Assembly (NCBI GenBank): GCA_964619815.1
Contig: CAZUGK010000001.1
Location: 22,878 to 83,793, forward strand
Reading direction: 5' to 3'
DNA length: 60,916 nucleotides
DNA from: an uncultured Clostridiaceae bacterium
GTDB lineage: Bacteria > Bacillota > Clostridia > Lutisporales > Lutisporaceae
The notes below the pieces were generated by a model, which saw nothing but the letters and a program-made list of their open reading frames with translations, was not told the DNA's origin and searched no databases. The translations under genes and the position numbers were made by a program. Numbering within the stretch: the stretch's first letter is position 1; each line of letters begins with the position of its first letter. Of this stretch, positions 27,260-48,373 are shown in pieces.

Positions 27260-27700
27260 ATGAAAGAAGTTGGAAAGGTAATAAAAATAGAAGACAACCA
27301 GGCAACGATACTGATTAAGAGAGGCACAGCCTGAGGTGAGTGCGGGAACTGCCAGGTAGGCAGGGAAAAACTCGAAATGGTTATGATTGCAGACAACAAT
27401 GTGCGGGCAGAAGTAGGGGATGAAGTAGAAATAGACTTGGAAAACATGAATTTCATGACTGCGATACTTATTGCTTATGGTTTTCCGCTTCTTGCACTGA
27501 TGGCCGGCATATTTGGCGGTTATTACGGTTTATTGGCATTTGGTATGAGCGACAATACGGCTCAAGCCCTGGGTGCAATAATTGGAATTGTTGCATTGGC
27601 AGCTTCCTATGCAGTGATAAAGTTCAATGATGAAGCAATCAAAAAAATGAAAAAATTCAAGCCTGTCATAGTAGGAATAAAAACAAAAGACAACATATAA
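27260..27700 (+). CDS. RseC/MucC-family (SoxR-reducing-system type) membrane protein with in-frame TGA at 27332-27334 (candidate Sec codon, otherwise a pseudogene)
   Basis: ATG 27260 gives MKEVGKVIKIEDNQATILIKRGTA, then TGA, then in the same frame GECGNCQVGREKLEMVMIADNNVRAEVGDEVEIDLE followed by 2 TM segments. The ORF track reports only the part from Met 27377. Hairpin CTGCC-AGGTA-GGCAG at 27349-27363. Confidence 0.6.
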
Positions 27701-32415: not shown

Positions 32416-33465
32416 ATGAGAAAAGAGAATGTTAAGGTAATTATCTGGGGTTTAGGCGCAATGGGCGGCGGAATCGCTGATTTGCTCCTCAAAAAGAAGG
32501 GCGTGGAGATTGTAGGTGCTGTAGGCAGAGGAGCCAAGATAGGCAAGAGCATGTATGACTACATAAAGACAGAAAGAGGCGACAGACCGGATGTTATAAT
32601 CGGTTCTTATGAGGATGTTATTAAAGAAAAAGCAGCCGATGTTGTTGTACTGTGCACAGACTCCTTTACAAGAAATGCTTTTGACAAGATAAAGTACTGC
32701 TTGGAGAAAAAGATCAATGTTGTATCCAGTGCAGAGGAAATGGCTTATCCTAAAGCTAAGGAACCGGAGCTTACAAAAGAATTGGATAAGATTGCAAAGG
32801 CTAATGGCGTAACAGTTCTCGGAACAGGTATAAATCCTGGACTCATGATGGATCTTCTTGTTGTAGCTTTCACCGGTGCATGTGAAGAAGTTGAGCATGT
32901 TGTTGCAAGGCGTGTAAACAGCTTGTCACCTTTCGGACCTGCAGTTATGGAAGAGCAAGGCATAGGCATTACAGTTGATGAATTCAAGAAGGGTGTTGAA
33001 ACAGGCAAGCTTGCAGGCCATGTAGGTTTTGCAGAATCGATAGGTATGATATCCGATGCTATAGGCTGGAAGCTAAGCGATTTCAATCAGACCATGGAGC
33101 CGATAGTTACTGAAGTTGACAGAAAGTCACCTTACGGCTTTGCAAAAGCAGGCGATGTTGCTGGCTGTGCAATGAAGGGTTACGGATACGTTGGCGGAGA
33201 GCTTAAGATAGAAATGGATCATCCGCAGCAGATAGAACCGCAGCTTGCCGGAGTTGAAACCGGTGATTATATAATAATAAAGGGAACACCTAACGTAAAC
33301 ATGGCCAACAAACCGGAAATACCCGGCGGAATTGGCACAATAGCAATGTGTGTAAATATGATACCTCACGTAATAAATGCAAGGCCCGGACTCAAGACTA
33401 TGATAGACCTTCCGGTACCAAGGGCAATTATGGGCGATATGAGGGAAATGATAGAAGAAGAATAG
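32416..33465 (+). CDS. ord: 2,4-diaminopentanoate dehydrogenase (copy 1)
   Basis: 349 aa. N-terminal Rossmann IIWGLGAMGGGIA, DapB-like fold. Close paralogue of the next gene. Heads the ort/ora cluster, as ord does in known ornithine fermenters. Confidence 0.82.
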   Translation: MRKENVKVIIWGLGAMGGGIADLLLKKKGVEIVGAVGRGAKIGKSMYDYIKTERGDRPDVIIGSYEDVIKEKAADVVVLCTDSFTRNAFDKIKYCLEKKINVVSSAEEMAYPKAKEPELTKELDKIAKANGVTVLGTGINPGLMMDLLVVAFTGACEEVEHVVARRVNSLSPFGPAVMEEQGIGITVDEFKKGVETGKLAGHVGFAESIGMISDAIGWKLSDFNQTMEPIVTEVDRKSPYGFAKAGDVAGCAMKGYGYVGGELKIEMDHPQQIEPQLAGVETGDYIIIKGTPNVNMANKPEIPGGIGTIAMCVNMIPHVINARPGLKTMIDLPVPRAIMGDMREMIEEE

Positions 33466-33488
33466 AATAGAATAGAAGAAAAATGTAG

Positions 33489-33532
33489 GCGAGGGACATA
33501 AAGTTTATGCTGAACATAAATATGTCCCTCGC
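33489..33532 (+). other. Strong intercistronic hairpin between the two ord copies (no T-tract)
   Basis: GCGAGGGACATA (33489-33500) / TATGTCCCTCGC (33521-33532), with further inner pairing (TTTATG/CATAAA). Followed by AAAATG, so not a canonical intrinsic terminator. Confidence 0.6.
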
Positions 33533-33619
33533 AAAATGTTGTGGCTGTATTGGTAATTTCTCTATATACTTGACCAATATTAGTAGTTAATTTGCACTAA
33601 GAAAAGGAGCAGTGAAAAG

Positions 33620-34669
33620 GTGGAAAATGTAAAGGTGGCAATTTGGGGATTTGGAGCAATGGGAAGCGGTATGGCAAGAATGATTCTTAATAAACAGGGA
33701 GTGGACATAGTCGGTGTATGCGATATGCATCCTGGCAGAGTAGGCAAGAGCATTTTTGAGGTTTTGAAAGAGGAAAAAGGCAGCAGACAAGATGTAATTA
33801 TTAAAGCAAATATTGATGAGGTAATATCAGAAGGAAGCTGTGACGTTTGCCTCTGTGCAACTGATTCCTATACTGAAAAAGCATTTCCGAAGCTTGCACA
33901 AGTTCTGAATAAGAAAATCAACGTAATATCAACAGCAGAAGAGATGTCATATCCTCAGGCTCAGAATCCTGAGCTTGCTGCCCAGTTGGATAAAATTGCA
34001 AAGAAAAATGGCGTGACAGTGCTTGGAACAGGTATTAATCCGGGACTTATAATGGATCTTCTGGTCGTATGCCTGACAGGCTGCATGACAAACGTTGAGC
34101 ATATTGAGGCTAAGAGGGTGAACAGTTTGTCACCTTTTGGCCATGCAGTTATGGAAGAGCAGGGAGTAGGTATTACTGTTGATGAATTCGAAAAGGGCGT
34201 AAAAAACGGAACGCTTGCCGGACATGTTGGCTTTGAAGAATCTGTAAGGATGATCGGCGATGCAATCGGCTGGGAGGTAGAAAAATTCGAACAGCAGATG
34301 AAACCAATTGTAACAAAGGTAGACAGAAAATCAACCTATGGGTTTGCAGCAGCCGGCAATGTTGCAGGTGTTAACATGACAGGCCAGGGCTATGTTGACG
34401 GAGAGGTAAAAATAGATATGATACATCCGCAGCAGATTGAGCCTGAAATGGAAGGGACTCAAACCGGAGATTATATTACAATAAAGGGTACTCCGGAGGT
34501 CAATATGTCAATAAAGCCTGAGGTGCAAGGCGGATTAGGCACTATTGCAATGTGCGTCAATATGATTCCTCAGGTTATAAATTCTGAGCCTGGACTTAAG
34601 ACTATGATTGATTTGCCTGTACCAAGAGCAATAATGGGTGATATGAGAAAGTTTATAAAGAAGAAATAA
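33620..34669 (+). CDS. ord: 2,4-diaminopentanoate dehydrogenase (copy 2)
   Basis: 349 aa. Colinear with copy 1 and roughly two-thirds identical by eye. GTG start after AAAAGGAG. Confidence 0.82.
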   Translation: MENVKVAIWGFGAMGSGMARMILNKQGVDIVGVCDMHPGRVGKSIFEVLKEEKGSRQDVIIKANIDEVISEGSCDVCLCATDSYTEKAFPKLAQVLNKKINVISTAEEMSYPQAQNPELAAQLDKIAKKNGVTVLGTGINPGLIMDLLVVCLTGCMTNVEHIEAKRVNSLSPFGHAVMEEQGVGITVDEFEKGVKNGTLAGHVGFEESVRMIGDAIGWEVEKFEQQMKPIVTKVDRKSTYGFAAAGNVAGVNMTGQGYVDGEVKIDMIHPQQIEPEMEGTQTGDYITIKGTPEVNMSIKPEVQGGLGTIAMCVNMIPQVINSEPGLKTMIDLPVPRAIMGDMRKFIKKK

Positions 34670-34683
34670 AGGAGTGTTGTAAA

Positions 34684-34995
34684 ATGAACTCAGCAAAAAA
34701 AGGAGACTGGGTGCAGATACATCAGATTGTTCTTAAACCGGAGGAGAGAGCACCGCAAGTTCCTGATGATACCAAGAAGGTACCTCTTGAGCTTTGGGTA
34801 AAGGGTATAGCTCTTAGCGATGCAAAAATCGGATCTCAAATCGAGATTGAAACTGCTACCGGCAGAAGGGTTAAAGGTGAACTGACTGCAATAAACCCAA
34901 GATATGAACATGATTTTGGGGAATTTGCCCCTGAGCTGCTAAAGGTAGACATGCAGCTTAAGGAAATCCTCTTTGGAGGTGGTTCAAATGAGTAA
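34684..34995 (+). CDS. ortA: 2-amino-4-ketopentanoate thiolase alpha subunit
   Basis: 103-aa protein directly upstream of, and overlapping, the PLP-dependent beta subunit. Sequence and position as for OrtA. Confidence 0.78.
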   Translation: MNSAKKGDWVQIHQIVLKPEERAPQVPDDTKKVPLELWVKGIALSDAKIGSQIEIETATGRRVKGELTAINPRYEHDFGEFAPELLKVDMQLKEILFGGGSNE

Positions 34996-36409
34996 AGATA
35001 TGTCATACGCAGCAGTAATGGGAAGAAAAAATGAAATAATGAAGCAGGCAATAGGTATAGATTACAATGCATTTGAATCCGGAAGCATATCCTTCGATTA
35101 TGAAAGAATGATGAGGGAAGCCGGATATACACTGGAAGAAATGCAGAAGATACAAGCCGAAACAAGCGTAGGCAATACCCCGATAGTAGAACTCAGAAAC
35201 CTTACAGAATTGGCCAGGAAGCTTGCCCCTAAAGGAAAAGGAGCAAGAATTTTTATAAAGGATGAAGCTGCAAATCCTTCCGGAAGCTTTAAAGCCAGAA
35301 GAGCGGCCACTTCTGTATACCATGCAAAGAAGCTTGGCTACAAGGGAGTAATTACTGCTACAAGCGGCAACTATGGTGCAGCGGTTGCTTCACAGGCTGC
35401 AAAGAGAGGACTTAAGTGTATTGTTGTACAGGAATGCTATGACAGCAGAAAGATTGGACAGCCTGAAATACTTGAAAAGCAGCGTGCCTGTGAGGCATAT
35501 GGTGCAGAGGTAATCCAGCTTACAGTCGGACCGGAGCTTTTTTACACCTTCCTGACATTGCTGGAGGAAACAGGTTACTTTAATGCATCATTATATACTC
35601 CTTTCGGAATTGCCGGAGTAGAAACCTTAGGCTATGAGCTTGCAATGCAGTTCAGGGAAAAACTGGGCAAAGATCCTGACAAGGTTATTATAACCAATGC
35701 AGGTGGCGGAAATGTGACGGGTACAGCAAGAGGCCTTATAAAAGCAGGGGCTAAGGATGTTGAGATTGTTGGAGCAAGCGTGGATCTTTCAGGTCTTCAT
35801 ATGGCTTCTGACAAGGATTTCAACAGAAAGTCCTTCACTACAGGACATACAGGCTTCGGCATACCGTTTGCAACCTGGCCTGACAGGTCAGACGTTCCGA
35901 GAAACGCAGCAAGACCTTTAAGATACCTTGACAGGTATGTGCTGGTAAAGCAGGGTGAGGTATTCTATGTCACAGAAGCATTATCGGTACTTGAAGGATT
36001 AGAGAGAGGACCTGCAGGGAACACATCCCTGACAGCAGCCTTTGCTCTTGCACAAGAGATGGATCAGGACCAGATCATAGTAGTTCAGGAAACTGAATAC
36101 ACAGGAGCAGGAAAGAGCCCGATGCCGCAGCTCAGCTTTGCTAAAAAGAACGGCATAGAGATATTGTTCGGTAATCCTGACCGCGATGAACCGGGGAAAA
36201 ACATAATACTTCCGGCTCACCCATCTGATATAAAAGTAAGAGACTATGATATCAAACATGCCAGAGCATCATATATAAAGAACTGTATTAACAATTACAA
36301 GGTAACAGAAATCACTAAAGAAGATTTTGACTTCCTTGTAAAGGATGCAAAGGCAGACAATAAGTTTGTAGAAGACGTACTTGCGGAATTAAATGTGAAA
36401 ATAAGATAA
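34988..36409 (+). CDS. ortB: 2-amino-4-ketopentanoate thiolase beta subunit (PLP-dependent)
   Basis: Fold-type II PLP enzyme (NPSGSFKARRA with the lysine, TATSGNYGAAVA). ATG 34988 lies after GGAGGTGG and overlaps the ortA stop. Confidence 0.85.
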   Translation: MSKDMSYAAVMGRKNEIMKQAIGIDYNAFESGSISFDYERMMREAGYTLEEMQKIQAETSVGNTPIVELRNLTELARKLAPKGKGARIFIKDEAANPSGSFKARRAATSVYHAKKLGYKGVITATSGNYGAAVASQAAKRGLKCIVVQECYDSRKIGQPEILEKQRACEAYGAEVIQLTVGPELFYTFLTLLEETGYFNASLYTPFGIAGVETLGYELAMQFREKLGKDPDKVIITNAGGGNVTGTARGLIKAGAKDVEIVGASVDLSGLHMASDKDFNRKSFTTGHTGFGIPFATWPDRSDVPRNAARPLRYLDRYVLVKQGEVFYVTEALSVLEGLERGPAGNTSLTAAFALAQEMDQDQIIVVQETEYTGAGKSPMPQLSFAKKNGIEILFGNPDRDEPGKNIILPAHPSDIKVRDYDIKHARASYIKNCINNYKVTEITKEDFDFLVKDAKADNKFVEDVLAELNVKIR

Positions 36410-36423
36410 ATGGAGGGATAGAA

Positions 36424-36780
36424 ATGGCAGTGAAACGTGCAGATGATTATGAGGTAAGAAGACAGCACCTCGCAAATCTTTCCGATGAAGAACTGAAACA
36501 GAAATTCTGGGGGCTGGCCGAAAAAATCGTCGAGCCAATGCTGGAGCTTGGCTACAAGAACACAACTCCCGCTATTGAAAGAAGCATACTTCTTAGAATG
36601 GGTTTCTCAAGCCTTGAAGTAAAGCCTATAGTTGAAGGCGTAATAAAAAAAGGACTTATGGGCAAGGGTGCCGGCAATGTAGTATGGAGACTCTCGAAAA
36701 AGCTCGGAGTTTCTGTAAGAGAAGCCGGAGTTGGACTTGCAGAAGGCAAATACTGGGATGAAGTCGACACATTGTTTTAA
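36424..36780 (+). CDS. oraS: D-ornithine 4,5-aminomutase small subunit
   Basis: 118 aa, immediately upstream of the large B12/PLP subunit. Size and sequence as for OraS. Confidence 0.82.
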   Translation: MAVKRADDYEVRRQHLANLSDEELKQKFWGLAEKIVEPMLELGYKNTTPAIERSILLRMGFSSLEVKPIVEGVIKKGLMGKGAGNVVWRLSKKLGVSVREAGVGLAEGKYWDEVDTLF

Positions 36781-36794
36781 AGGAGGGGAAACGT

Positions 36795-38999
36795 ATGAAA
36801 TTAGATCCTAACAAAAAGCTGGATATAAAGGAACTGCTTCAAGACCTTGAAAGCTACAGGCCAAGAAGAAGAGGCTGGCATTGGAGAGAGGGAAGAAATG
36901 AGAAGAGGATTATCGGAGACTTTGAATATCATGAAACCTCAGAAAGCCTGAAGAATTCTATTCCCCTGCCGGGAAGCCGCGGCTTCAATTATATAGATCC
37001 ACAGCCGGATTGTGTCATTACTACTGAAATAGCTTCAGGAAGGTTTGAAGACGATATAAGAAGAATGAGAATGGCAGCCTGGCATGGTGCAGACCATATA
37101 ATGGTTATAAGGACAGCAGGCCAGTCTCATATTGACTCTCTTATTGAAGGTACCACTCAGGGTATAGGCGGTATTGCTGTTACAAGAAAACAGTGCAGGG
37201 CTACTAGAAAAGCTCTCGATATGATAGAGGATGAAGTAGGAAGACCAATTAATTTCCATTCATATATTTCCGGCGTTGCAGGTCCTGATATAGCTGTAAT
37301 GTTTGCTGAAGAAGGAGTCAATGGAGCTCACCAGGATCCACAGTACAATGTATTATATAGAAATGTAAACATGGTCAGAAGCTTTGCTGATGCGTGTGAA
37401 GCAAAAAAAATCATGGCATGGGCAGATATATTGCAGATAGATGGAGCCCACAATGCCAATGCTACTGCAATGAAAGCCTGGAAGGTAAGACCGGAGCTTA
37501 TGGTTCAGCATGCCATAAACAGCATATTCTCAAGAAAGGTTGGCATCAAACCGGAGAATATAGCACTTTCTACAGTACCTCCGACAGCACCGCCGGCACC
37601 GCGTATGAGAATCGACCTTCCTTACGCCGTTGCACTGCGTGACTTCTTCAGCGAATACAAGATGAGGGCTCAGCAGAACACAAAATATATGGAATCAGAC
37701 ATGAGGGAAGCAACAGTTACACATACATTGGACCTCATGATTTCCAGACTTACAAGTGCTGATATACAGTCTACAATTACTCCTGATGAAGGAAGAAATG
37801 TTCCGTGGCATTACAACAACATAGCTGCGATCAACACAGCTAAGCAGGCTCTCGATGGGATGGACGGCTTAAGAGAAATGGTTAAGCTGGACAGGGAAGG
37901 GCCTTTAGGCAAGGAAGTAAGAGAGCTTAAAGAGAGAGCAGTACTCTTCATGGAAGAAATACTCGAAGTAGGCGGATACTTCAAAGCTGTTGAAAACGGC
38001 TTCTTCATAGACAGCGGTAACTATCCTGAAAGAAACGGCGATGGAATTCCAAGACAGATTGACGGCGGCATAGGCGTAGGCATGATATTTGAAAGAGATA
38101 AGGATTATTTTGCTCCTGTATCAGTTCACTACGGCTATAACAACATACCTGCAGAATTCAAGAAGGCTTCCGATGCTATAGGCGGGGATACCTTTGAAGA
38201 TCCTTCAAAGATTGTATATATTGACGAGCTTGACGAGTACGATAACGTAAACGTAAGACTCAAGGATCTTGAAAAATATTATGAGACAAACACTGTAAAA
38301 CCAGAGGTTGAGTGGAGAGCAGACGGAGTGGTTGCCACTACTATATTCCTCCCATTAGATGAAAGAACTGCAGAATTCGCAGCTATAAAATGCGGTGAAA
38401 AGCTTGGGCTTGAAGATGTGACGGTAGTCCATAAGCAGGCATTGCATCCTTCAGAGGGCACACTAGTTGAAATTAAGGGCAAAGTAAAATTTGACATTAA
38501 TGTTAACGAGCTGGTGATTCCGGAAAAGATTCCGGTAATGTCCGACGAAGAAATCAGAGATGACATCTCCGCAAAACCAATGTTTGTTGTAGCCGCTACT
38601 GTAGGAAACGATGAACACTCGGTCGGAATGAAGGAAACATTGGATATTAAACATGGTGGAATAGAAAAGTACGGTATAAAATACCTGTATCTCGGAACCT
38701 CCTGCCCGGTTGAAAAGCTTGTTGATGCAGCTATTGAGACTAATGCAGACGCAATATTGGCAAGTACAATCATTACTCATGATGACGTTCATGTGAAGAA
38801 CATGAGGAAGATACATGAGCTTTGCATAGAAAAGGGCATAAGAGACAAGGTAATGCTTGTTGTCGGAGGAACACAGGTTACCAACGAAATTGCTGTGGAA
38901 GCAGGTATGGATGCAGGCTTCGGCAGAGGCACCCACGGCAATGACGTAGCAAGCTTCCTTGTCAAGAGAAGAAGGGAAAAGCAGAACAATGAAAATTAG
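36795..38999 (+). CDS. oraE: D-ornithine 4,5-aminomutase large subunit (B12- and PLP-dependent)
   Basis: 734 aa. TIM-barrel N-terminal part and a C-terminal B12-binding Rossmann domain with the base-off DxHxxG-type motif (GNDEHSVG). Confidence 0.9.
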   Translation: MKLDPNKKLDIKELLQDLESYRPRRRGWHWREGRNEKRIIGDFEYHETSESLKNSIPLPGSRGFNYIDPQPDCVITTEIASGRFEDDIRRMRMAAWHGADHIMVIRTAGQSHIDSLIEGTTQGIGGIAVTRKQCRATRKALDMIEDEVGRPINFHSYISGVAGPDIAVMFAEEGVNGAHQDPQYNVLYRNVNMVRSFADACEAKKIMAWADILQIDGAHNANATAMKAWKVRPELMVQHAINSIFSRKVGIKPENIALSTVPPTAPPAPRMRIDLPYAVALRDFFSEYKMRAQQNTKYMESDMREATVTHTLDLMISRLTSADIQSTITPDEGRNVPWHYNNIAAINTAKQALDGMDGLREMVKLDREGPLGKEVRELKERAVLFMEEILEVGGYFKAVENGFFIDSGNYPERNGDGIPRQIDGGIGVGMIFERDKDYFAPVSVHYGYNNIPAEFKKASDAIGGDTFEDPSKIVYIDELDEYDNVNVRLKDLEKYYETNTVKPEVEWRADGVVATTIFLPLDERTAEFAAIKCGEKLGLEDVTVVHKQALHPSEGTLVEIKGKVKFDINVNELVIPEKIPVMSDEEIRDDISAKPMFVVAATVGNDEHSVGMKETLDIKHGGIEKYGIKYLYLGTSCPVEKLVDAAIETNADAILASTIITHDDVHVKNMRKIHELCIEKGIRDKVMLVVGGTQVTNEIAVEAGMDAGFGRGTHGNDVASFLVKRRREKQNNEN

Positions 39000-40341
39000 T
39001 GTACTGGTAGCTGAGATTGGCAGCACCACTACAGTAGTTAATGCATTTGACAGGATTATGAGCCCTTGTCCGAAATTCATCGGGCAAGGGCAAGCTCCTA
39101 CTACGGTGCTTAATGGTGATGTAACCGTAGGACTTAGAGGTGCTGTAGATGACCTAAAGAGGAACCTGGGAGAGACAGAGCTTACGTGGGATGAATTCCT
39201 TGCAACCAGCAGCGCGGCAGGGGGCCTTAGGATGACAGTCCACGGCCTTGTATATGATATGACGGTAAGGGCTGCAAAGGAGGCTGCACTGGGTGCAGGA
39301 GCGATAATCAAGCATGTTACGGCAGGAAAACTAAGAAGAACAGACCTGAAGAAGATTGAGGAAATAAGGCCCAATATTATATTGGTTGCAGGGGGAGTAG
39401 ACTACGGTGAAAGGGACACCGCCCTGCACAATTTTGAAATGATAGCATCCATGGGTCTCAATATTCCTGTAATATATGCAGGTAATATTGAGAATCAGGA
39501 GGAAGTTAGGCTGATTGCAGAAGAAACCGGTACAAGGCTTTATTTAGTGGAGAATGTTTACCCAAAGGTTGACATGCTTAATGTAGAACCTACCAGAAAA
39601 GTCATTCAGGAGGTTTTTGAAGAGCATATTATACATGCACCCGGGATGAGCACAGTAAGAGATATGGTGAAGGGACCGATTATACCAACACCTGGAGCGG
39701 TAATGGAAGCCGCGAAGCTTCTTAAGGAGTATTTGGGTGACCTTGTTGTATTCGATGTAGGAGGTGCAACAACGGATGTCCACTCAGTTACAGAAGGCTC
39801 GGAAGAAGTAAATTTGATGCTTATAAGCCCCGAACCTGTAGCGAAGAGAACTGTTGAAGGAGATCTGGGAGTATATGTGAACCTTGAACATATAGTGGAG
39901 AAGATAGGCTTGGAAAACCTGAAAAAGGAATTCCCGGATGCAGAAGAGCTTATAAAAAATAAAAAGCCAATTCCTGAGACAGACAGGGAAAAACAGTTTA
40001 TCGAAAGTCTGACCAAAGAGGCCGTACTTACATCTTTGGAACGTCATGCGGGCAGACTCAGATACTTGTATGGTCCTAGCGGAAAAAAGACGGTCGCAGA
40101 GGGAAAGGACCTTACTAATATTAAGTATGTTATTGGAACCGGAGGAGCCTTAACAAGACTTCCTAACCGGATTGAAATACTGAAGGCAGTCGGACTGTAC
40201 TCAAAAGGAACGGAGCTGTATCCTGGAAAGGAAGCTAAGATACTGGTTGACAACCATTATATAATGGCTTCCCTGGGAGTGCTCTCCAAAAGATTCCCGG
40301 AAGCGGCACTGGAGCTTATGAAGCAAAGTATGCAAATCTAG
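38989..40341 (+). CDS. GlmL/MutL-like (glutamate mutase reactivase-type) ATPase, probable aminomutase reactivase
   Basis: MKISVLVAEIGSTTTVVNAF... and DVGGATTDVHS, ASKHA/actin-like ATPase motifs of the MutL (glutamate mutase) family. ATG 38989 overlaps the oraE end. Confidence 0.72.
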   Translation: MKISVLVAEIGSTTTVVNAFDRIMSPCPKFIGQGQAPTTVLNGDVTVGLRGAVDDLKRNLGETELTWDEFLATSSAAGGLRMTVHGLVYDMTVRAAKEAALGAGAIIKHVTAGKLRRTDLKKIEEIRPNIILVAGGVDYGERDTALHNFEMIASMGLNIPVIYAGNIENQEEVRLIAEETGTRLYLVENVYPKVDMLNVEPTRKVIQEVFEEHIIHAPGMSTVRDMVKGPIIPTPGAVMEAAKLLKEYLGDLVVFDVGGATTDVHSVTEGSEEVNLMLISPEPVAKRTVEGDLGVYVNLEHIVEKIGLENLKKEFPDAEELIKNKKPIPETDREKQFIESLTKEAVLTSLERHAGRLRYLYGPSGKKTVAEGKDLTNIKYVIGTGGALTRLPNRIEILKAVGLYSKGTELYPGKEAKILVDNHYIMASLGVLSKRFPEAALELMKQSMQI

Positions 40342-45525: not shown

Positions 45526-47103
45526 CTACTTAAAGAATTCTCCTATCTTTTTAAACAGGCTGTTATATTTGTATGGTGCATTGCTATCCTCGTCTACTAC
45601 CTCCCCGGCAATCTGTGAGGTCTTTTTTCCCGAACCTGAAAATGCCTGCTTTCCATTTCCTGCTGTCTCAATATTTGCTTCATTTTCCTTGGAGAGCTCA
45701 CCGGATGCTGCATTGACGCCAGGCCTGCCTACGTAGGTAGTTATATGCTCCTGATTTAACAACAGAGTTTCATAATTAGGTAGCTTTTCACTTTTCATGA
45801 ATTTTTCCTTGAAATTGCTTTTTTTAAGCGGTGCCATATCCAAGATGCCATTTAAAGCAGGCTTTGGCTTTGCCGGGAAGAGTTCTTTCATCTCTGCCTC
45901 AGGAGCTTTCTGAACAAAGGTTTTGCTCTCAAGGTTATCAATCCGGCTATTCAATAGTTGGACATTCTCTGACAGACCTTTTATTTCATTAAGAATCTGT
46001 TTCAAATAGTCATTCATTTCAGTTGAAACCTCAGCCTGGGGCTTTTCTTTCTGTTTATCCTCTGCGGCAATTTTTGTTGTATGCTCCAGGGGTCTTAATA
46101 TATTGTAATCCTTGTCAAGTATGAAGTATCCTTTTGATATTGCAATAGAGCCTGTATTTCGTATGCATTTGATCACTCGTATATTGGTTTCTGCTGTTAT
46201 AGGCAGATCAATAGCTTTTTTCCATTTGCCGGAGGAATCCTCAAGGGTGTACTGATGAAAGACATAGTCTTTTATCCATGCAAGCTGCAGGGATTTATCA
46301 TCGGCGTAGAACAAGGGTATTACGCCACCGGTATCAACAAGAGAATTGTTCAGTTCCTTAAAATCTATTTCACTGCTTCCTGAAGACTTGCTCAAGAAAT
46401 GATGAATATTGCTTGCTTCACTTTCATTGGAAAAACTGAGCAGGTTAATTTTCTTATTATGGCTTATAAGTTTAATGGATACCTGGTTTTTGTAAGAAAT
46501 GTTCAGGCTCTTGTGAATCCATGACTTGATTGAGTCATCGAAACAATAATAGTTAATATAGTATAGGGTTCCGTCATACCAAACACTTGCGTAATGTATG
46601 CTGCCGCCTTTTAAGGGAAGTATGGAAAAAGAGCTTTCAATATTCTGCGAGTATATTTCAGATAAGCTGTTCTTTCTCCAGGAATACTCTATATAAGGAA
46701 CTTGCTCGTTAATATTCTTGTGGATGTGATATACGTTGTACATATTGGCGACAGGCAGCTTTTTTGAAAAAAATATATGTATGGAGCCGTTCTGTACTAC
46801 CATATCCATAATATATATATTGGCGCTGTTGTGTTGATTTACAACAGCTTCAAATTTCCAGCCGGAATTGGTATATATAAAAAGCAGAATCCCCTTGTAC
46901 CTGCTGCTGCAAGCAAGATAAACCGCATCATCTGTGTCAATAGCTGCTGCGAAGTCGGCATTGGCCTGGCTTATGAGTATGGTATCCTTTGTATCTCCGG
47001 CGCCGGAAACCTCTCTGTAATATATGGAGGTATCCTTGTAATAGAACAAATACTTGCTGCCTTTAGAATCCTCCAGTATTATTGATGGCTTTATATCTAT
47101 CAT
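45526..47103 (-). CDS. Hypothetical 525-aa protein (beta-rich N-terminal ~340 aa, coiled-coil, low-complexity tail)
   Basis: Good RBS (GGGTGGTG) before ATG. No signal peptide or TM. Central coiled-coil NDYLKQILNEIKGLSENVQLLNSRIDNLESK. No family recognised. Confidence 0.6.
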   Translation of the reverse strand: MIDIKPSIILEDSKGSKYLFYYKDTSIYYREVSGAGDTKDTILISQANADFAAAIDTDDAVYLACSSRYKGILLFIYTNSGWKFEAVVNQHNSANIYIMDMVVQNGSIHIFFSKKLPVANMYNVYHIHKNINEQVPYIEYSWRKNSLSEIYSQNIESSFSILPLKGGSIHYASVWYDGTLYYINYYCFDDSIKSWIHKSLNISYKNQVSIKLISHNKKINLLSFSNESEASNIHHFLSKSSGSSEIDFKELNNSLVDTGGVIPLFYADDKSLQLAWIKDYVFHQYTLEDSSGKWKKAIDLPITAETNIRVIKCIRNTGSIAISKGYFILDKDYNILRPLEHTTKIAAEDKQKEKPQAEVSTEMNDYLKQILNEIKGLSENVQLLNSRIDNLESKTFVQKAPEAEMKELFPAKPKPALNGILDMAPLKKSNFKEKFMKSEKLPNYETLLLNQEHITTYVGRPGVNAASGELSKENEANIETAGNGKQAFSGSGKKTSQIAGEVVDEDSNAPYKYNSLFKKIGEFFK

Positions 47104-47212
47104 GCAATCACCACCCTATAGTTTTTCGCATTATATATAATATATGGGTTTGTTCATGGGTATATGATAGTGATTGATTTTGTAAATTATAAATTTTTAT
47201 ATTAACTTGGTC

Positions 47213-47240
47213 ACAAAAATAACAGCAAATCCATATTATA
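47213..47240 (+). promoter_or_regulatory. Sigma-K-like (late mother-cell) promoter candidate
   Basis: AC (47213-47214), 17 nt, CATATTATA (47232-47240) fits AC-N16/17-CATANNNTA. About 40 nt upstream of ATG 47283. Confidence 0.35.
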
Positions 47241-47282: not shown

Positions 47283-48047
47283 ATGCAAAACAGTAATATT
47301 ACATTACCAACTGTATTATGTGCAGGAACTACCAAGGTAGAAGTTAATGTAGGCGGAAGAACTGAAAGTAAAGATTTGATATTTGAGTGCATAAAGGTAA
47401 AGAAGGTATTTGACGAATTTGTATTAAGAGATTGTGTTGAAGGCATTAAGTTCAAGGTGTGCGGGGATCCACACGGAGGAGAAATAGTACCGTCCTTGAT
47501 ACTTAGAAACTGCAAGCTTAGCAATGTAGAAATCAAGGATGTATCTTCCAACACGGAAAAAAGGCTCAAGTTCTCGGCAAAGTGCTGCTGTGATGTATTT
47601 GGAAAGGATGAAAGAGGACACATTATAAGGCTCGAGGTGCTTGATGTACCTGAGGGTACTAATCTGTCAGAGGGACCCGGCGGAGAACTTTGCTTTACCT
47701 TCAGTGTGAGAAGAACTTATACCAATGTAACAGAGGAAAACTTTGAAAGATTGCTGCATTTCCTTGATCAGGAAAGATTTGAGCTACAGTGCCTCGGGGA
47801 AGCAATGATTGACGAGGATAATAATAGAACTACCGGTGAAATACTGATTACAAACCTGGGCGCATTCATAGCAATTAAATTTGATGCGGAAGTTCAGCTT
47901 TGTGTTCCTGTGTTGGGCTACTGCGCAATAGAGGAAGATGTTGCACCTATAGAAGTAAACTTCTGCGAAGAGTTTGAATTTGAGGATGTTCCCTCCTTTA
48001 ACCCTCCGCAGCTAGGAATGCCTATTCCTCCATATACAACCGGTTAA
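47283..48047 (+). CDS. Hypothetical Cys-rich 254-aa protein (possible spore coat/exosporium component)
   Basis: RBS AGGAAGGTGAG. 13 Cys including a CCC triplet, an acidic C-terminus, and no signal peptide or TM. No family recognised. Confidence 0.6.
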   Translation: MQNSNITLPTVLCAGTTKVEVNVGGRTESKDLIFECIKVKKVFDEFVLRDCVEGIKFKVCGDPHGGEIVPSLILRNCKLSNVEIKDVSSNTEKRLKFSAKCCCDVFGKDERGHIIRLEVLDVPEGTNLSEGPGGELCFTFSVRRTYTNVTEENFERLLHFLDQERFELQCLGEAMIDEDNNRTTGEILITNLGAFIAIKFDAEVQLCVPVLGYCAIEEDVAPIEVNFCEEFEFEDVPSFNPPQLGMPIPPYTTG

Positions 48048-48056
48048 CAGCCTGCT

Positions 48057-48257
48057 ATGATTAATGGGGATATGAAAATAAAGGAAATCATAAGAAGATA
48101 TCCGTGTGCAAAAAGAGTGTTGAAGCACTATGATTTGCTCTCGGCAGGCTGCAGCTGAGCAGGGTGTCCGGATAGGACACTCAGGCAGGCTGCCGAGTCG
48201 AGAGGAGTCGAATTGAATAAGTTAATGAAATTATTGAATAACAAGATCAAGGGCTAG
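48057..48257 (+). CDS. DUF1858-type small redox-disulfide protein with in-frame TGA at 48156-48158 (candidate Sec codon, otherwise a pseudogene)
   Basis: Not in the ORF track. ATG 48057 gives MINGDMKIKEIIRRYPCAKRVLKHYDLLSAGCS, then TGA, then in the same frame AGCPDRTLRQAAESRGVELNKLMKLLNNKIKG and TAG 48255. Hairpin GGGTGTCC-GGATA-GGACACTC at 48162-48182. Confidence 0.55.
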
Positions 48258-48373
48258 TATTCTCACTGGCCTTGGTCTTTTTTTGCACAATTCAAGTAAC
48301 TTGTCACAGCAGAAAAGCATATTGTGAAATTGAGAGTAGGTTGAATAGCTCGGAGAAGGAGGCAGTACACCAT

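What the first reader, a model, noticed from the sequence alone, without database searches (positions are those of the whole stretch)
48057..48257. Unannotated 66-codon DUF1858-like gene with TGA at the first Cys of its CxxC motif: second candidate selenoprotein
This gene starts ten nt after the stop of the Cys-rich 254-aa gene and is absent from the ORF track. ATG 48057 opens MINGDMKIKEIIRRYPCAKRVLKHYDLLSAGCS, then TGA (48156-48158). The same frame continues as AGCPDRTLRQAAESRGVELNKLMKLLNNKIKG to TAG 48255. Read through, it has the length and layout of the DUF1858 (hybrid-cluster-protein-associated redox disulfide) domain. From memory that domain reads ...HC.GCP....L.EAA..HG.D...L...LN. The TGA would align with the first Cys, giving U-A-G-C-P. 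A strong hairpin, GGGTGTCC-GGATA-GGACACTC (48162-48182, 8 bp including one G-T), begins 4 nt after the TGA and has GG in its loop. The spacing from the UGA to the loop (about 12-16 nt) is at the short end for bacterial SECIS elements. Two independent TGA-at-CxxC events in one window are hard to explain by chance nonsense mutations.
Basis: partly seen in the sequence, partly recalled or inferred. Interest (0 to 1): 0.72.

Follow-up and report, generated by a model that had tools for sequence, protein, structure and literature searches.

The report
Unannotated small selenoprotein gene (DUF1858)
A 66-codon gene that gene callers cut short at an in-frame TGA is almost certainly a real selenocysteine-containing redox protein of a known family, in a variant that public databases currently truncate or mistranslate.

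Summary
In detail: ATG 48057, in-frame TGA 48156-48158, same frame open to TAG 48255-48257. The read-through protein passes Pfam's DUF1858 threshold.

The selenoprotein reading is strongly supported. All 30 distinct orthologous genes examined at DNA level have TGA at this codon. The downstream frame evolves like coding sequence. No Cys form of the subfamily exists in 1.84 billion protein representatives.

- Sec corresponds to the second Cys of the canonical CxxC motif, not the first. The conserved partner is Cys at -2 (G-C-G-U-G-G). The window's +3 Cys is specific to its lineage.
It is a hairpin at 48179-48198 with loop C-AGGCU-G, 28 nt after the UGA, built from the Q-A-A codons. It covaries and is absent from 80 Cys-form genes (p = 2e-15).

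DUF1858 selenoproteins are already catalogued with a CxxU motif, so this CxU form is a new variant of a known kind. The gene forms an operon with a Cys-rich 254-aa gene behind a conserved sigma-K-like sporulation promoter. Sec machinery in this genome could not be checked.

The parts
47213..47240 (+). Sigma-K-like (mother-cell sporulation) promoter: AC, 17-nt spacer, CATATTATA. It lies about 40 nt upstream of the 254-aa gene.
   Evidence: The pattern AC-N16-17-CATAnnnTA is found at -51 to -75 from the start codon in 23 of 31 syntenic loci (one of the 23, L023, at -134), against a background of 0.017 per 240 nt. The boxes are near-invariant and the spacer varies. The consensus (-35 AC; -10 CATATAAT / CATATTAT) is taken from PMC3789822. 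Function is inferred, not shown.
47283..48047 (+). Upstream operon partner: a Cys-rich 254-aa protein of unknown function, all-beta, with 7 invariant and 1 nearly invariant Cys.
   Evidence: It has 87 homologs at 50-100% identity. Invariant residues include C13, C36, C51, C102, C137, C207 and C214. There is no Pfam or NCBIfam hit. The AF2 model has pLDDT 74 with long beta strands, and no PDB fold match (TM <= 0.19). The gene is syntenic with the small gene in 26 of 30 informative genome loci.
48057..48257 (+). 66-codon DUF1858 selenoprotein gene: MINGDMKIKEIIRRYPCAKRVLKHYDLLSAGCS-U-AGCPDRTLRQAAESRGVELNKLMKLLNNKIKG.
   Evidence: Pfam DUF1858 matches over the full length (profile positions 1-59 of 59), and 19 of 19 relatives also match. 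The frame is open from TGA to the stop in 27 of 27 sequences, and the other frames are closed in 17 of 17. Codon-position entropy downstream of the TGA (0.90/0.63/1.26) is like that upstream (0.82/0.59/1.30).
48150..48152 (+). Cys32 codon (TGC), the conserved partner of Sec in the C-x-U motif.
   Evidence: Cys32 is invariant in all family members. It is the only invariant Cys column in the 38-sequence alignment with canonical DUF1858 proteins.
48156..48158 (+). Sec codon (TGA), residue 34.
   Evidence: TGA is at the homologous codon in 30 of 30 distinct subfamily genes read at DNA level. No TGY or Cys form was found in two protein-database searches.
48162..48182 (+).
   Evidence: It is present and stable in the window. 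It is not conserved: 46.6% of cells pair against a shuffle mean of 46.4%. The closest relatives (L004, L005, L007-L009) have a weaker hairpin in the same interval. Its loop is 11 nt from the UGA, outside the 16-37 nt range of the published model.
48179..48198 (+). Conserved SECIS hairpin. In the window the stem is ACUC-(A bulge)-GGC / GCC-GAGU, the apical loop AGGCU is at 48187-48191 (GG at 48188-48189), and the loop starts 28 nt after the UGA.
   Evidence: RNAalifold predicts it independently. 86.3% of cells pair against 73.2% in shuffles (0 of 500 reach it) and 18-55% in slid registers, with 30 double-sided compensatory cells. It is absent from 80 Cys-form genes: 2.24 against 5.0 arm pairs of 6, p = 2e-15. 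In the window it scores -7.9 kcal/mol, and it becomes the minimum-energy fold once 6 or more nt after the UGA are blocked.
48250..48283 (+). Intrinsic-terminator-like hairpin plus T-run that ends the two-gene operon.
   Evidence: A 9-bp stem at 48250-48273 is followed by GGTCTTTTTT.
45526..47103 (-). Divergently transcribed 525-aa gene of unknown function, syntenic with the pair.
   Evidence: A homolog is found in the same position and orientation in nearly all loci. It has no Pfam hit. A sigma-E-like motif is found upstream in only 12 of 29 loci, which is weak.

Best explanation
48057-48257 is a functional gene for a 66-residue selenoprotein of the DUF1858 / ScdA_N-like helical fold. UGA 48156-48158 is decoded as selenocysteine.

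Decoding is directed by a SECIS hairpin whose apical loop (C-AGGCU-G) and stem are made from the codons of the domain's conserved [L/I]-x-Q-A-A motif. The loop lies 28 nt downstream of the UGA. In the window's own copy this hairpin is weakened and uses a shifted register with a bulged A. An extra lineage-specific hairpin sits between it and the UGA, and it must be opened by the ribosome as the UGA reaches the A site.

Sec34 occupies the position of the second Cys of the canonical CxxC motif. Its partner is Cys32, in a glycine-flanked loop G-C-x-U-x-G. The pair most likely cycles between selenol/thiol and selenenylsulfide, acting as a two-electron redox relay.

The gene is the second cistron of a two-gene operon with a Cys-rich 254-aa all-beta protein. 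The operon has a sigma-K-like promoter and an intrinsic terminator. I infer expression in the sporulating mother cell, with the Cys-rich protein as the probable redox client or partner.

Shown: gene, family, fold, conserved TGA, coding signature, covarying SECIS that is specific to Sec forms, operon structure. Inferred: Sec insertion itself, redox chemistry, partner identity, sporulation timing. The confidence given applies to the core claim (a genuine Sec-encoding DUF1858 gene with the conserved hairpin as its SECIS). The redox-partner and sporulation parts are much less certain, about 0.3.
For: Family and fold:
- Pfam DUF1858 scores 39.5 bits against a cutoff of 32.2, over the full length. 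All 19 relatives tested also match.
- The AF2 model of a same-layout relative has pLDDT 86. It matches the solved DUF1858 structures 2K5E (TM 0.74) and 2K53 (TM 0.72), and the N-terminal domain of YtfE, 5FNY (TM 0.78).

Conserved TGA and coding signature:
- TGA is at the same codon in 26 genome loci plus the window, and in L035, L036/L037 and L041.
- Database proteins that read 'GCGWGG' are TGA translated under genetic code 4. The 33-37-aa entries are calls truncated at the TGA.
- Downstream of the TGA, frame 0 is open in 27 of 27 sequences and the other frames are closed in 17 of 17. The codon-position entropy pattern equals the upstream pattern.
- TGA is an ordinary stop in this genome, ending 4 of 45 long ORFs.
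- There is no Cys form of the subfamily among 85 profile hits or among the best 150 of 383 hits in 1.84 billion representatives.

SECIS:
- RNAalifold predicts the hairpin, and 4 of its 7 pairs show compensatory changes.
- 86% of cells pair against 73% in shuffles (0 of 500) and 18-55% in slid registers.
- Covariation includes synonymous sites: the third base of the Ala/Val codon pairs with the second base of the R/Q/E codon.
- The Gln codon is CAG in 32 of 32 Sec genes but 18 of 30 Cys-form genes that have Gln. CAG-GCT occurs in 27 of 32 against 5 of 30. Arm pairing is 5.0 against 2.24 of 6, p = 2e-15.
- The hairpin meets all four criteria of the published bacterial SECIS model. In the window it scores -7.9 kcal/mol, and it becomes the minimum-energy fold when 6 or more nt after the UGA are occupied.
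- The same hairpin follows the TGA in a CxxU-form gene (L038) and a CU-form gene (L039).
- The window's other in-frame TGA (27332) is followed by a hairpin with the same kind of loop, C-AGGUA-G, 19 nt downstream.

Lineage and mechanism:
- A Lutisporaceae genome bin is reported to carry GrdABC and a partial selABCD cluster (PMC8674449).
- In the homologous ScdA_N domain of YtfE, the Cys30/Cys31 pair forms a disulfide and relays electrons to a partner metal centre (PMC9052748).
- Operon: 9-nt intercistronic gap, conserved sigma-K-like promoter in 23 of 31 loci, terminator.
Against: - Sec machinery (selA, selB, selC, selD) was not found in the window. There are no tRNA genes, and no sel domains in the 30 long ORFs scanned. 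The rest of the genome could not be reached.
- No Rfam family matches the region.
- In the window's own sequence the conserved hairpin pairs at only 3 of 6 in-register arm positions, among the lowest of 32. In the free RNA it is out-competed by the lineage-specific hairpin: the outer pairs have probability about 0.
- There is no Shine-Dalgarno sequence before the ATG, so translation would depend on coupling to the upstream gene.
- Sequence aligners (MAFFT, canonical-profile HMMER) place Cys32, not Sec, on the canonical second Cys. The residue correspondence therefore rests on spacing and the U-G-G context.
- The redox role, the partner and the sporulation timing have no experimental support. 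The partner's fold matched nothing.
Confidence: 0.85

Rival explanations
1. One reading: Sec replaces the first Cys of a UxxC (U-A-G-C-P) motif, and the strong hairpin at 48162-48182 is the operative SECIS in this organism.
For: The window does read U-A-G-C-P. The hairpin is the dominant structure of the free RNA, with z = -5 and pair probability about 1. It has GG in a 5-nt loop closed by C-G. The closest relatives have a weaker hairpin in the same interval. In this one lineage it may contribute, for example by pausing the ribosome or stacking under the conserved element.
Against: The +3 Cys is unique to the window. The hairpin shows no conservation or covariation. Its loop is 11 nt from the UGA, outside the 16-37 nt model range. 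Its 5' arm starts 4 nt after the UGA, so it lies at least partly inside the ribosome when UGA is in the A site (established ribosome geometry; modelled). The U-to-Gln spacing equals the spacing from the second Cys to Gln in Cys forms.
Confidence: 0.08
2. TGA is read as a standard amino acid (Trp, Gly or Cys), by code reassignment or near-cognate read-through, and not as Sec.
For: Public gene callers translate it as Trp in at least 11 database entries. Sec machinery was not verified for this genome.
Against: TGA terminates 4 of 45 long ORFs in the window, and the table-11 ORFs give full-length Pfam matches, so there is no global reassignment. The codon sits at a redox Cys position next to a conserved Cys. 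A hairpin matching the SECIS model is found specifically in the TGA forms and not in 80 Cys forms. A Lutisporaceae genome bin has sel genes.
Confidence: 0.04
3. TGA is a genuine stop. The product is a 33-aa peptide, and the conserved downstream sequence is an untranslated RNA element or a separately translated ORF.
For: This is how NCBI and JGI annotate it. Examples are P0142, a 37-aa 'DUF1858 domain-containing protein' from Lutispora thermophila, and the 33-aa calls P0129, P0134, P0140 and P0141.
Against: The downstream 32 codons show the same codon-position variability as the upstream half, and frame 0 stays open in 27 of 27 sequences. They complete the DUF1858 domain (profile positions 1-59 of 59). 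No start codon follows the TGA before the conserved TLRQAAE segment. A 33-residue half-domain would lack helices 3 and 4.
Confidence: 0.03
4. It is a pseudogene, a chance nonsense mutation or a sequencing error.
For: None beyond the presence of a stop codon.
Against: The same TGA is found in 30 independent assemblies whose partner protein spans 50-100% identity, with an intact downstream frame.
Confidence: 0.01

Closest known systems
DUF1858 domain-containing selenoprotein (PF08984; motif CxxU; representative WP_012065717.1) in the catalogue of prokaryotic selenoproteins (PMC13188914 Table 1; PMC9312934)
   Same: Same Pfam domain, one Sec, and Sec at the position of the canonical second Cys, followed by G-G. 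A metagenomic CxxU-form gene (L038, R-C-F-G-U-G-G) has the same GAG-CAGGCUG-CUC hairpin at the same distance, with the Gln codon at U+10.
   Different: The motif here is C-x-U (G-C-G-U-G-G; in the window G-C-S-U-A-G-C). The canonical first Cys is lost, and the loop is 2 residues longer on the N-terminal side of Sec. The genomic partner is a Cys-rich 254-aa gene, whereas in L038 it is a Pyr_redox_2 flavoprotein gene. The review counts different Sec motifs as separate subfamilies. I could not retrieve WP_012065717.1 itself, so its motif is taken from the review.
Canonical Cys-form DUF1858 / TIGR03980 'hybrid cluster protein-associated redox disulfide' small proteins (solved structures 2K5E, 2K53)
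   Same: Same length and fold (TM 0.72-0.74). Same YP...[C]...IEQAA...LN layout. The distance from the redox residue to the conserved Gln is the same, 10 codons.
   Different: These proteins have C-x-G-C-P with two Cys and no TGA. Their genes lack the hairpin (2.24 of 6 arm pairs, none above 4). The window protein scores below the TIGR03980 cutoff. No hybrid-cluster-protein gene was found among the window ORFs scanned.
ScdA_N domain (PF04405) of the di-iron proteins YtfE and ScdA, with the adjacent redox-active Cys30/Cys31 pair
   Same: Same fold (5FNY N-terminal domain, TM 0.78). A profile match to ScdA has E = 5e-8, and Sec aligns to the second Cys of F-C-C-G-G. The Cys pair forms a disulfide and relays electrons to a partner site (PMC9052748), which is the mechanism I propose here.
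   Different: This protein is standalone and is not fused to a hemerythrin-like di-iron domain. Its motif is C-x-U, not C-C. The Pfam ScdA_N score is below the cutoff (20.2 against 32.5).
Bacterial SECIS consensus model of Zhang and Gladyshev, as summarised in PMC13188914
   Same: The conserved hairpin meets all four criteria. The loop is 5 nt (AGGCU) or 3 nt (GGC), with G at position 2 or 1. The stem is 6-8 bp. The spacing is 28 nt. In the window the energy is -7.9 kcal/mol.
   Different: The loop and stem coincide with a conserved protein motif (Q-A-A), so RNA and protein constraints overlap. The window copy uses a bulged, shifted register and has an extra upstream hairpin.

Membership tests
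Pfam DUF1858 (PF08984) | Whole-protein score at or above the gathering threshold (32.2 bits) | tested here: met
   39.5 bits, E = 5.9e-10, profile positions 1-59 of 59. All 19 relatives tested match, best E = 1.5e-14.
Pfam DUF1858 (PF08984) | Small helical fold as in the solved members 2K5E and 2K53 | tested here: met
   AF2 model of the relative P0107 (same 66-residue layout; the window read-through itself could not be submitted) has pLDDT 86. Foldseek gives 2K5E TM 0.74 and 2K53 TM 0.72, probability 1.00.
Pfam DUF1858 (PF08984) | Canonical C-x-x-C (C-x-G-C-P) redox motif | tested here: not met
   The first Cys position holds S, R, K, I or N. The motif is G-C-x-U-x-G, with a 2-residue insertion.
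TIGR03980 hybrid cluster protein-associated redox disulfide domain | Score at or above the NCBIfam cutoff (44.95 bits) | tested here: not met
   36.9 bits.
TIGR03980 hybrid cluster protein-associated redox disulfide domain | Association with a hybrid cluster protein (prismane) gene | tested here: not met
   The neighbours are a Cys-rich 254-aa gene, a 525-aa gene of unknown function, and GT8 and epimerase genes. There is no prismane domain in the 30 window ORFs scanned.
Bacterial selenoprotein gene | In-frame UGA conserved among orthologs, with the downstream frame under coding constraint | tested here: met
   30 of 30 distinct subfamily genes have TGA. Frame 0 is open in 27 of 27 and other frames closed in 17 of 17. 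Codon-position entropy downstream is 0.90/0.63/1.26.
Bacterial selenoprotein gene | Homologs with Cys at the position aligned to Sec | tested here: met
   In canonical DUF1858 the second Cys is 10 codons before the conserved Gln in 75 of 80 genes. Sec is 10 codons before it in 31 of 32 genes. No Cys form exists within the subfamily itself.
Bacterial selenoprotein gene | [quoted passage not shown] | tested here: met
The conserved hairpin is at 48179-48198. Its loop is AGGCU, 28 nt from the UGA, and it scores -7.9 kcal/mol in the window. It covaries and is specific to Sec forms.
Bacterial selenoprotein gene | selA, selB, selC (tRNA-Sec) and selD in the same genome | not testable with these tools
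   There are none in the window. The only indirect evidence is a Lutisporaceae genome bin with GrdABC and a partial selABCD cluster, plus a second in-frame TGA gene in the window.
Bacterial selenoprotein gene | Selenium shown in the protein (75Se labelling or mass spectrometry) | not testable with these tools
   Requires experiment.
Catalogued DUF1858 selenoprotein, CxxU form | Sec-related motif CxxU | tested here: not met
   The motif here is CxU. A true CxxU gene, L038 (C-F-G-U-G-G), was found for comparison. The representative WP_012065717.1 could not be fetched.
Pfam ScdA_N (PF04405) | Score at or above the gathering threshold (32.5 bits), and fusion to a hemerythrin-like di-iron domain | tested here: not met
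   20.2 bits. The protein is a standalone 66 residues.

The most novel reading that the evidence does not exclude
There are two linked readings.

(1) The operon is a sigma-K-controlled, mother-cell module. The Cys-rich all-beta protein would be a spore coat or exosporium component, and the small protein its dedicated selenol/thiol redox partner. That would make it the first selenoprotein tied specifically to sporulation.

(2) All Sec forms of the DUF1858/ScdA_N superfamily (CxxU, CxU, CU) descend from one Cys-to-Sec conversion. That conversion exploited the near-palindromic codons of the E-Q-A-A motif as a ready-made SECIS 10 codons downstream. Afterwards the resolving Cys migrated from -3 to -2 to -1.
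Probability: 0.25. Interest if true: 0.65.

Novelty: new variant of a known kind. Interest (0 to 1): 0.5.

Why it matters
- **Annotation:** every public record I could see for this subfamily is wrong. It is either truncated to 33-37 aa at the TGA, as in the NCBI entry for Lutispora thermophila, or translated with Trp under genetic code 4 by metagenome pipelines. A family model would correct dozens of genomes and add a CxU form, and probably a CU form, to the catalogue of DUF1858 selenoproteins.
- **SECIS biology:** the case shows a SECIS written into the codons of a conserved protein motif, with amino-acid changes (R/Q/E paired with A-E/V-E/A-Q) that keep the RNA stem intact. The 80 Cys-form genes act as a natural negative control.
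- **Function:** if the sporulation link holds, it points to selenium-dependent redox chemistry in spore-surface assembly in anaerobic amino-acid fermenters. This can be tested in two cultured Lutispora species.

Tried and rejected
- **Rfam:** gathering-threshold and permissive scans gave only chance snoRNA and miRNA matches and no SECIS family.
- **Single-sequence searches:** the word-indexed homolog search and the genome scan with the 66-aa read-through found nothing. I switched to using the upstream gene as a synteny anchor.
- I used full-length 'W' relatives instead.
- **Source contig:** it could not be reached to look for sel genes. ARAGORN found no tRNA-Sec in the window or in 34 loci.
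- **Known representative:** WP_012065717.1 could not be retrieved. The cited source papers do not mention it in their main text.
- **Partner structure:** the AF2 model of the 254-aa partner matched no PDB fold, so it gave no functional lead.
- **Sigma-E-like promoter:** the motif upstream of the divergent 525-aa gene is found in only 12 of 29 loci, too weak to rely on.
- **Aligner placement of Sec:** I considered the MAFFT and HMMER placement (Cys32 on the second Cys, Sec two residues after it). I prefer Sec on the second Cys, because of the fixed 10-codon spacing to Gln and the shared U-G-G context across the three Sec forms.
- **Protein co-evolution:** I considered that the stem covariation might reflect an i/i+4 helix contact in the protein. 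I rejected this because synonymous third positions covary too, and because Cys forms with the same motif lack the pairing.
Full report
**1.

ATG 48057 lies 9 nt after the TAA of the 254-aa gene. It is followed by 33 sense codons, TGA at 48156-48158, and 32 more in-frame codons to TAG at 48255-48257.
- The mechanical ORF list contains only the 33-aa stub.
- The hairpin at 48162-48182 is real and very stable. The region folds at -32.8 kcal/mol, z = -5.0.

**2. Family and fold**

- With Sec written as Cys, the protein matches Pfam DUF1858 over the whole profile: 39.5 bits against a cutoff of 32.2.
- It is below the cutoff for TIGR03980 (36.9 against 44.95) and for ScdA_N (20.2 against 32.5).
- An AF2 model of a relative with the same 66-residue layout has pLDDT 86. 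It superposes on the two solved DUF1858 structures (2K5E TM 0.74, 2K53 TM 0.72) and on the N-terminal domain of YtfE (TM 0.78).
- The C-x-U motif lies in the long loop between helices 2 and 3.

**3. Comparative evidence for a recoded TGA**

- Direct searches with the 66-aa protein found nothing. I therefore used the upstream 254-aa gene as an anchor. It has 87 homologs, and a profile scan of GTDB species genomes returned 34 loci. These are mostly Lutisporaceae and other uncultured Clostridia, and include Lutispora thermophila DSM 19022 and L. saccharofermentans.
- In 26 of these loci the small gene lies directly downstream, and every copy has TGA at the same codon. One locus ends inside the gene. 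Four of the most distant loci lack the gene.
- A family-profile search returned ten full-length proteins that read 'GCGWGG' and six entries of 33-37 aa that end in 'GCG'. DNA look-ups show that the W is TGA translated under genetic code 4. The short entries are calls truncated at the TGA, including NCBI's 'DUF1858 domain-containing protein [Lutispora thermophila]'.
- No Cys form ('GCGCGG') appears in that search, or in an exhaustive HMMER search of 1.84 billion representatives.
- Downstream of the TGA, frame 0 is open in 27 of 27 sequences and the other frames are closed in 17 of 17. Codon-position entropy downstream (0.90/0.63/1.26) mirrors the upstream half (0.82/0.59/1.30).
- TGA is a normal stop in this genome, ending 4 of 45 long ORFs.
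- Together these results exclude a pseudogene, a true stop and global reassignment.

**4. The motif is not UxxC**

- The window reads G-C-S-U-A-G-C-P, but relatives read G-C-G-U-G-G-[F/S/A/R/Q/K/L/Y]. The +3 Cys is therefore specific to the window's lineage. The conserved partner is Cys32, two residues upstream.
- Relative to canonical DUF1858 (G-L-H-C-x-G-C-P...E-T-I-E-Q-A-A), the family has lost the first Cys, and its loop is two residues longer.
- MAFFT and a canonical-only HMM put Cys32 on the canonical second Cys. The family profile against 2K5E and ScdA puts Sec there instead.
- Spacing decides between the two. The conserved Gln codon is 10 codons after Sec in 31 of 32 Sec genes, and 10 codons after the second Cys in 75 of 80 Cys-form genes.

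**5. The SECIS**

- I aligned 27 orthologous segments.
- This hairpin has an invariant C-AGGCU-G top and a 6-bp stem that changes in a compensated way: CUUCGG/CCGAAG, AUUCAA/UUGAAU and AUUGAG/CUCAAU.
- Pair counts give 86.3% of cells paired, against 73.2% in shuffles (0 of 500 reach the observed value) and 18-55% in slid registers. There are 30 double-sided changes.
- The stem changes alter amino acids (R/Q/E on one side, A-E/V-E/A-Q on the other) and also involve synonymous third positions. The constraint is therefore on the RNA.
- The loop starts 28 nt after the UGA. [quoted passage not shown]

**6. A negative control**

- The hairpin is built from codons of the domain's conserved x-Q-A-A motif, so I fetched 80 metagenomic Cys-form genes that encode E-[T/S]-I-E-[Q/E]-A-A. 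They lack the hairpin.

| Measure | Sec genes (n = 32) | Cys-form genes (n = 80) | Test |
|---|---|---|---|
| Mean arm pairs out of 6 | 5.0 (24 of 32 have 5 or more) | 2.24 (none above 4) | p = 2e-15 |
| Gln codon is CAG | 32 of 32 | 18 of 30 (genes with Gln) | p = 4e-5 |
| CAG-GCT | 27 of 32 | 5 of 30 | p = 1e-7 |

- The structure therefore goes with the TGA and not with the peptide.

**7. The window's own copy is atypical**

- Synonymous changes (CTT CGG to CTC AGG) leave only 3 of 6 in-register pairs.
- A shifted register with A48183 bulged restores ACUC/GAGU, at -7.9 kcal/mol.
- In the free RNA the lineage-specific hairpin wins.
- Once 6 or more nt after the UGA are made unavailable, as they are when the ribosome holds UGA in the A site, the conserved hairpin becomes the minimum-energy fold, with pair probability 0.95. 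Which element SelB uses in this organism remains an inference.

**8. Other Sec forms and what is already known**

[quoted passage not shown] The family-level idea is therefore not new.
- Among the exhaustive-search hits I found a CxxU gene (L038, R-C-F-G-U-G-G, next to a Pyr_redox_2 flavoprotein gene) and a 'CU' gene (L039/L040, G-C-U-G-G). Both have TGA and the same GAG-CAGGCUG-CUC hairpin at the same spacing.
- The CxU form in the window is thus one of at least three Sec geometries that share one SECIS. By the review's own rule, that different Sec motifs count as different subfamilies, it is uncatalogued.
- I could not fetch WP_012065717.1 to confirm its motif directly.

**9. Context and likely function**

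- The small gene is the second cistron after the Cys-rich 254-aa gene, which has 7 invariant and 1 nearly invariant Cys. That protein is all-beta and matches no PDB fold.
- The pair is preceded by AC-N17-CATATTATA at 47213-47240. This motif is conserved in 23 of 31 loci against a background of 0.017 per 240 nt. It matches the sigma-K / mother-cell promoter consensus described for Clostridioides difficile (PMC3789822).
- The pair is followed by a terminator-like hairpin.
- A divergent 525-aa gene of unknown function is syntenic with the pair, and GT8 and sugar epimerase genes often follow it.
- In YtfE, the homologous ScdA_N domain carries an adjacent Cys pair that forms a disulfide and feeds electrons to a partner site (PMC9052748).
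- From this I infer a Cys32/Sec34 selenenylsulfide relay that serves the Cys-rich partner during late sporulation. This part is hypothesis.

**10. Limits**

- No sel genes or tRNA-Sec are in the window, and the rest of the genome could not be reached.
- Indirect support comes from three sources. A Lutisporaceae genome bin is reported with GrdABC and a partial selABCD cluster. The window contains a second in-frame TGA, in an RseC_MucC gene. The hairpin after that TGA has the same kind of loop, C-AGGUA-G, 19 nt downstream.

**Verdict**

This is a genuine, systematically mis-annotated selenoprotein gene. It is a new CxU variant of a known selenoprotein family.

Noticed in passing
window 27260-27700 (+), TGA at 27332-27334: An RseC_MucC (PF04246, 99.6 bits) gene has an in-frame TGA that gives U-G-E-C-G-N-C. 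A hairpin CUGC-C-AGGUA-G-GCAG at 27349-27363 has its loop 19 nt after the UGA, the same C-AGGnn-G type of loop as the DUF1858 SECIS. RseC/MucC does not appear in the review's table of 119 selenoprotein families.
   Followed up: partly
L039 144-395 and L040 110-361 (metagenome contigs): A DUF1858/ScdA_N-like gene has TGA in a G-C-U-G-G ('CU') motif and the same GAG-CAGGCUG-CUC hairpin. This looks like a third Sec geometry in the superfamily. A second TGA at codon 67 is probably the true stop. P0265 looks like a second member of this form.
   Followed up: partly
L038 126-986 and 1113-1286: A CxxU-form DUF1858 selenoprotein gene (R-C-F-G-U-G-G) sits directly downstream of a 286-aa Pyr_redox_2 (thioredoxin-reductase-like) gene. 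This suggests a flavoprotein reductase partner for that form.
   Followed up: no
Public protein entries P0103-P0112, P0189 (W at the Sec site); P0129, P0134, P0140-P0142, P0152, P0251, P0302, P0307 (33-37 aa): The subfamily is systematically mis-annotated. TGA is translated as Trp (genetic code 4) on short metagenome contigs, or the gene is truncated at the TGA, as in NCBI's Lutispora thermophila record.
   Followed up: yes
window 48299-48326: A second mother-cell-type promoter-like motif, AC-N17-CATATTGT, lies upstream of the first GT8 glycosyltransferase gene. Similar sequence is visible in L003-L005 and L007. The GT8 ORF listed from TTG 48272 more likely starts at ATG 48375, which is preceded by GGAGAAGGAGG.
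   Followed up: no
window 47104-47165 (minus strand), upstream of the 525-aa gene 45526-47103: A sigma-E-like motif, ATA-N16-CATATATT, is found here, but only in 12 of 29 syntenic loci (background 0.034 per 230 nt).
   Followed up: partly
L024, L026, L027, L029: These more distant loci (50-53% identity) keep the Cys-rich 254-aa gene and the divergent 525-aa gene but have no DUF1858 gene downstream. The selenoprotein partner is therefore dispensable or replaced in some lineages.
   Followed up: partly
L036/L037 161-373: This subfamily member has the motif G-C-G-U-A-G. Its loop is CAGGCAG and only 2 of 6 canonical arm positions pair. A different long-range stem (GCG..AUUUU / AAAAU..CGC) may replace the usual hairpin.
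   Followed up: no
L011 (JBLNDG010000111.1) and L023 (JAJGRE010000001.1): The record titles name 'Caulobacteraceae bacterium' and 'Calditrichales bacterium'. Both loci are nevertheless fully syntenic with the Clostridia/Lutisporaceae loci (DUF2207-LemA-RarA-525aa-254aa-DUF1858). This probably reflects mis-binned or mislabelled assemblies.
   Followed up: no
window 32416-40341: This is an ornithine-fermentation cluster. It has two tandem 2,4-diaminopentanoate dehydrogenase paralogs, a PLP enzyme and a B12-dependent ornithine aminomutase. It fits an amino-acid-fermenting (Stickland-type) anaerobe, a lifestyle commonly associated with selenoproteins.
   Followed up: no
window 47283-48047; P0012: One homolog of the 254-aa partner carries a precomputed Pfam hit, PF27077. 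That family did not match in the local Pfam copy, so a very recent Pfam family may already cover this protein.
   Followed up: no
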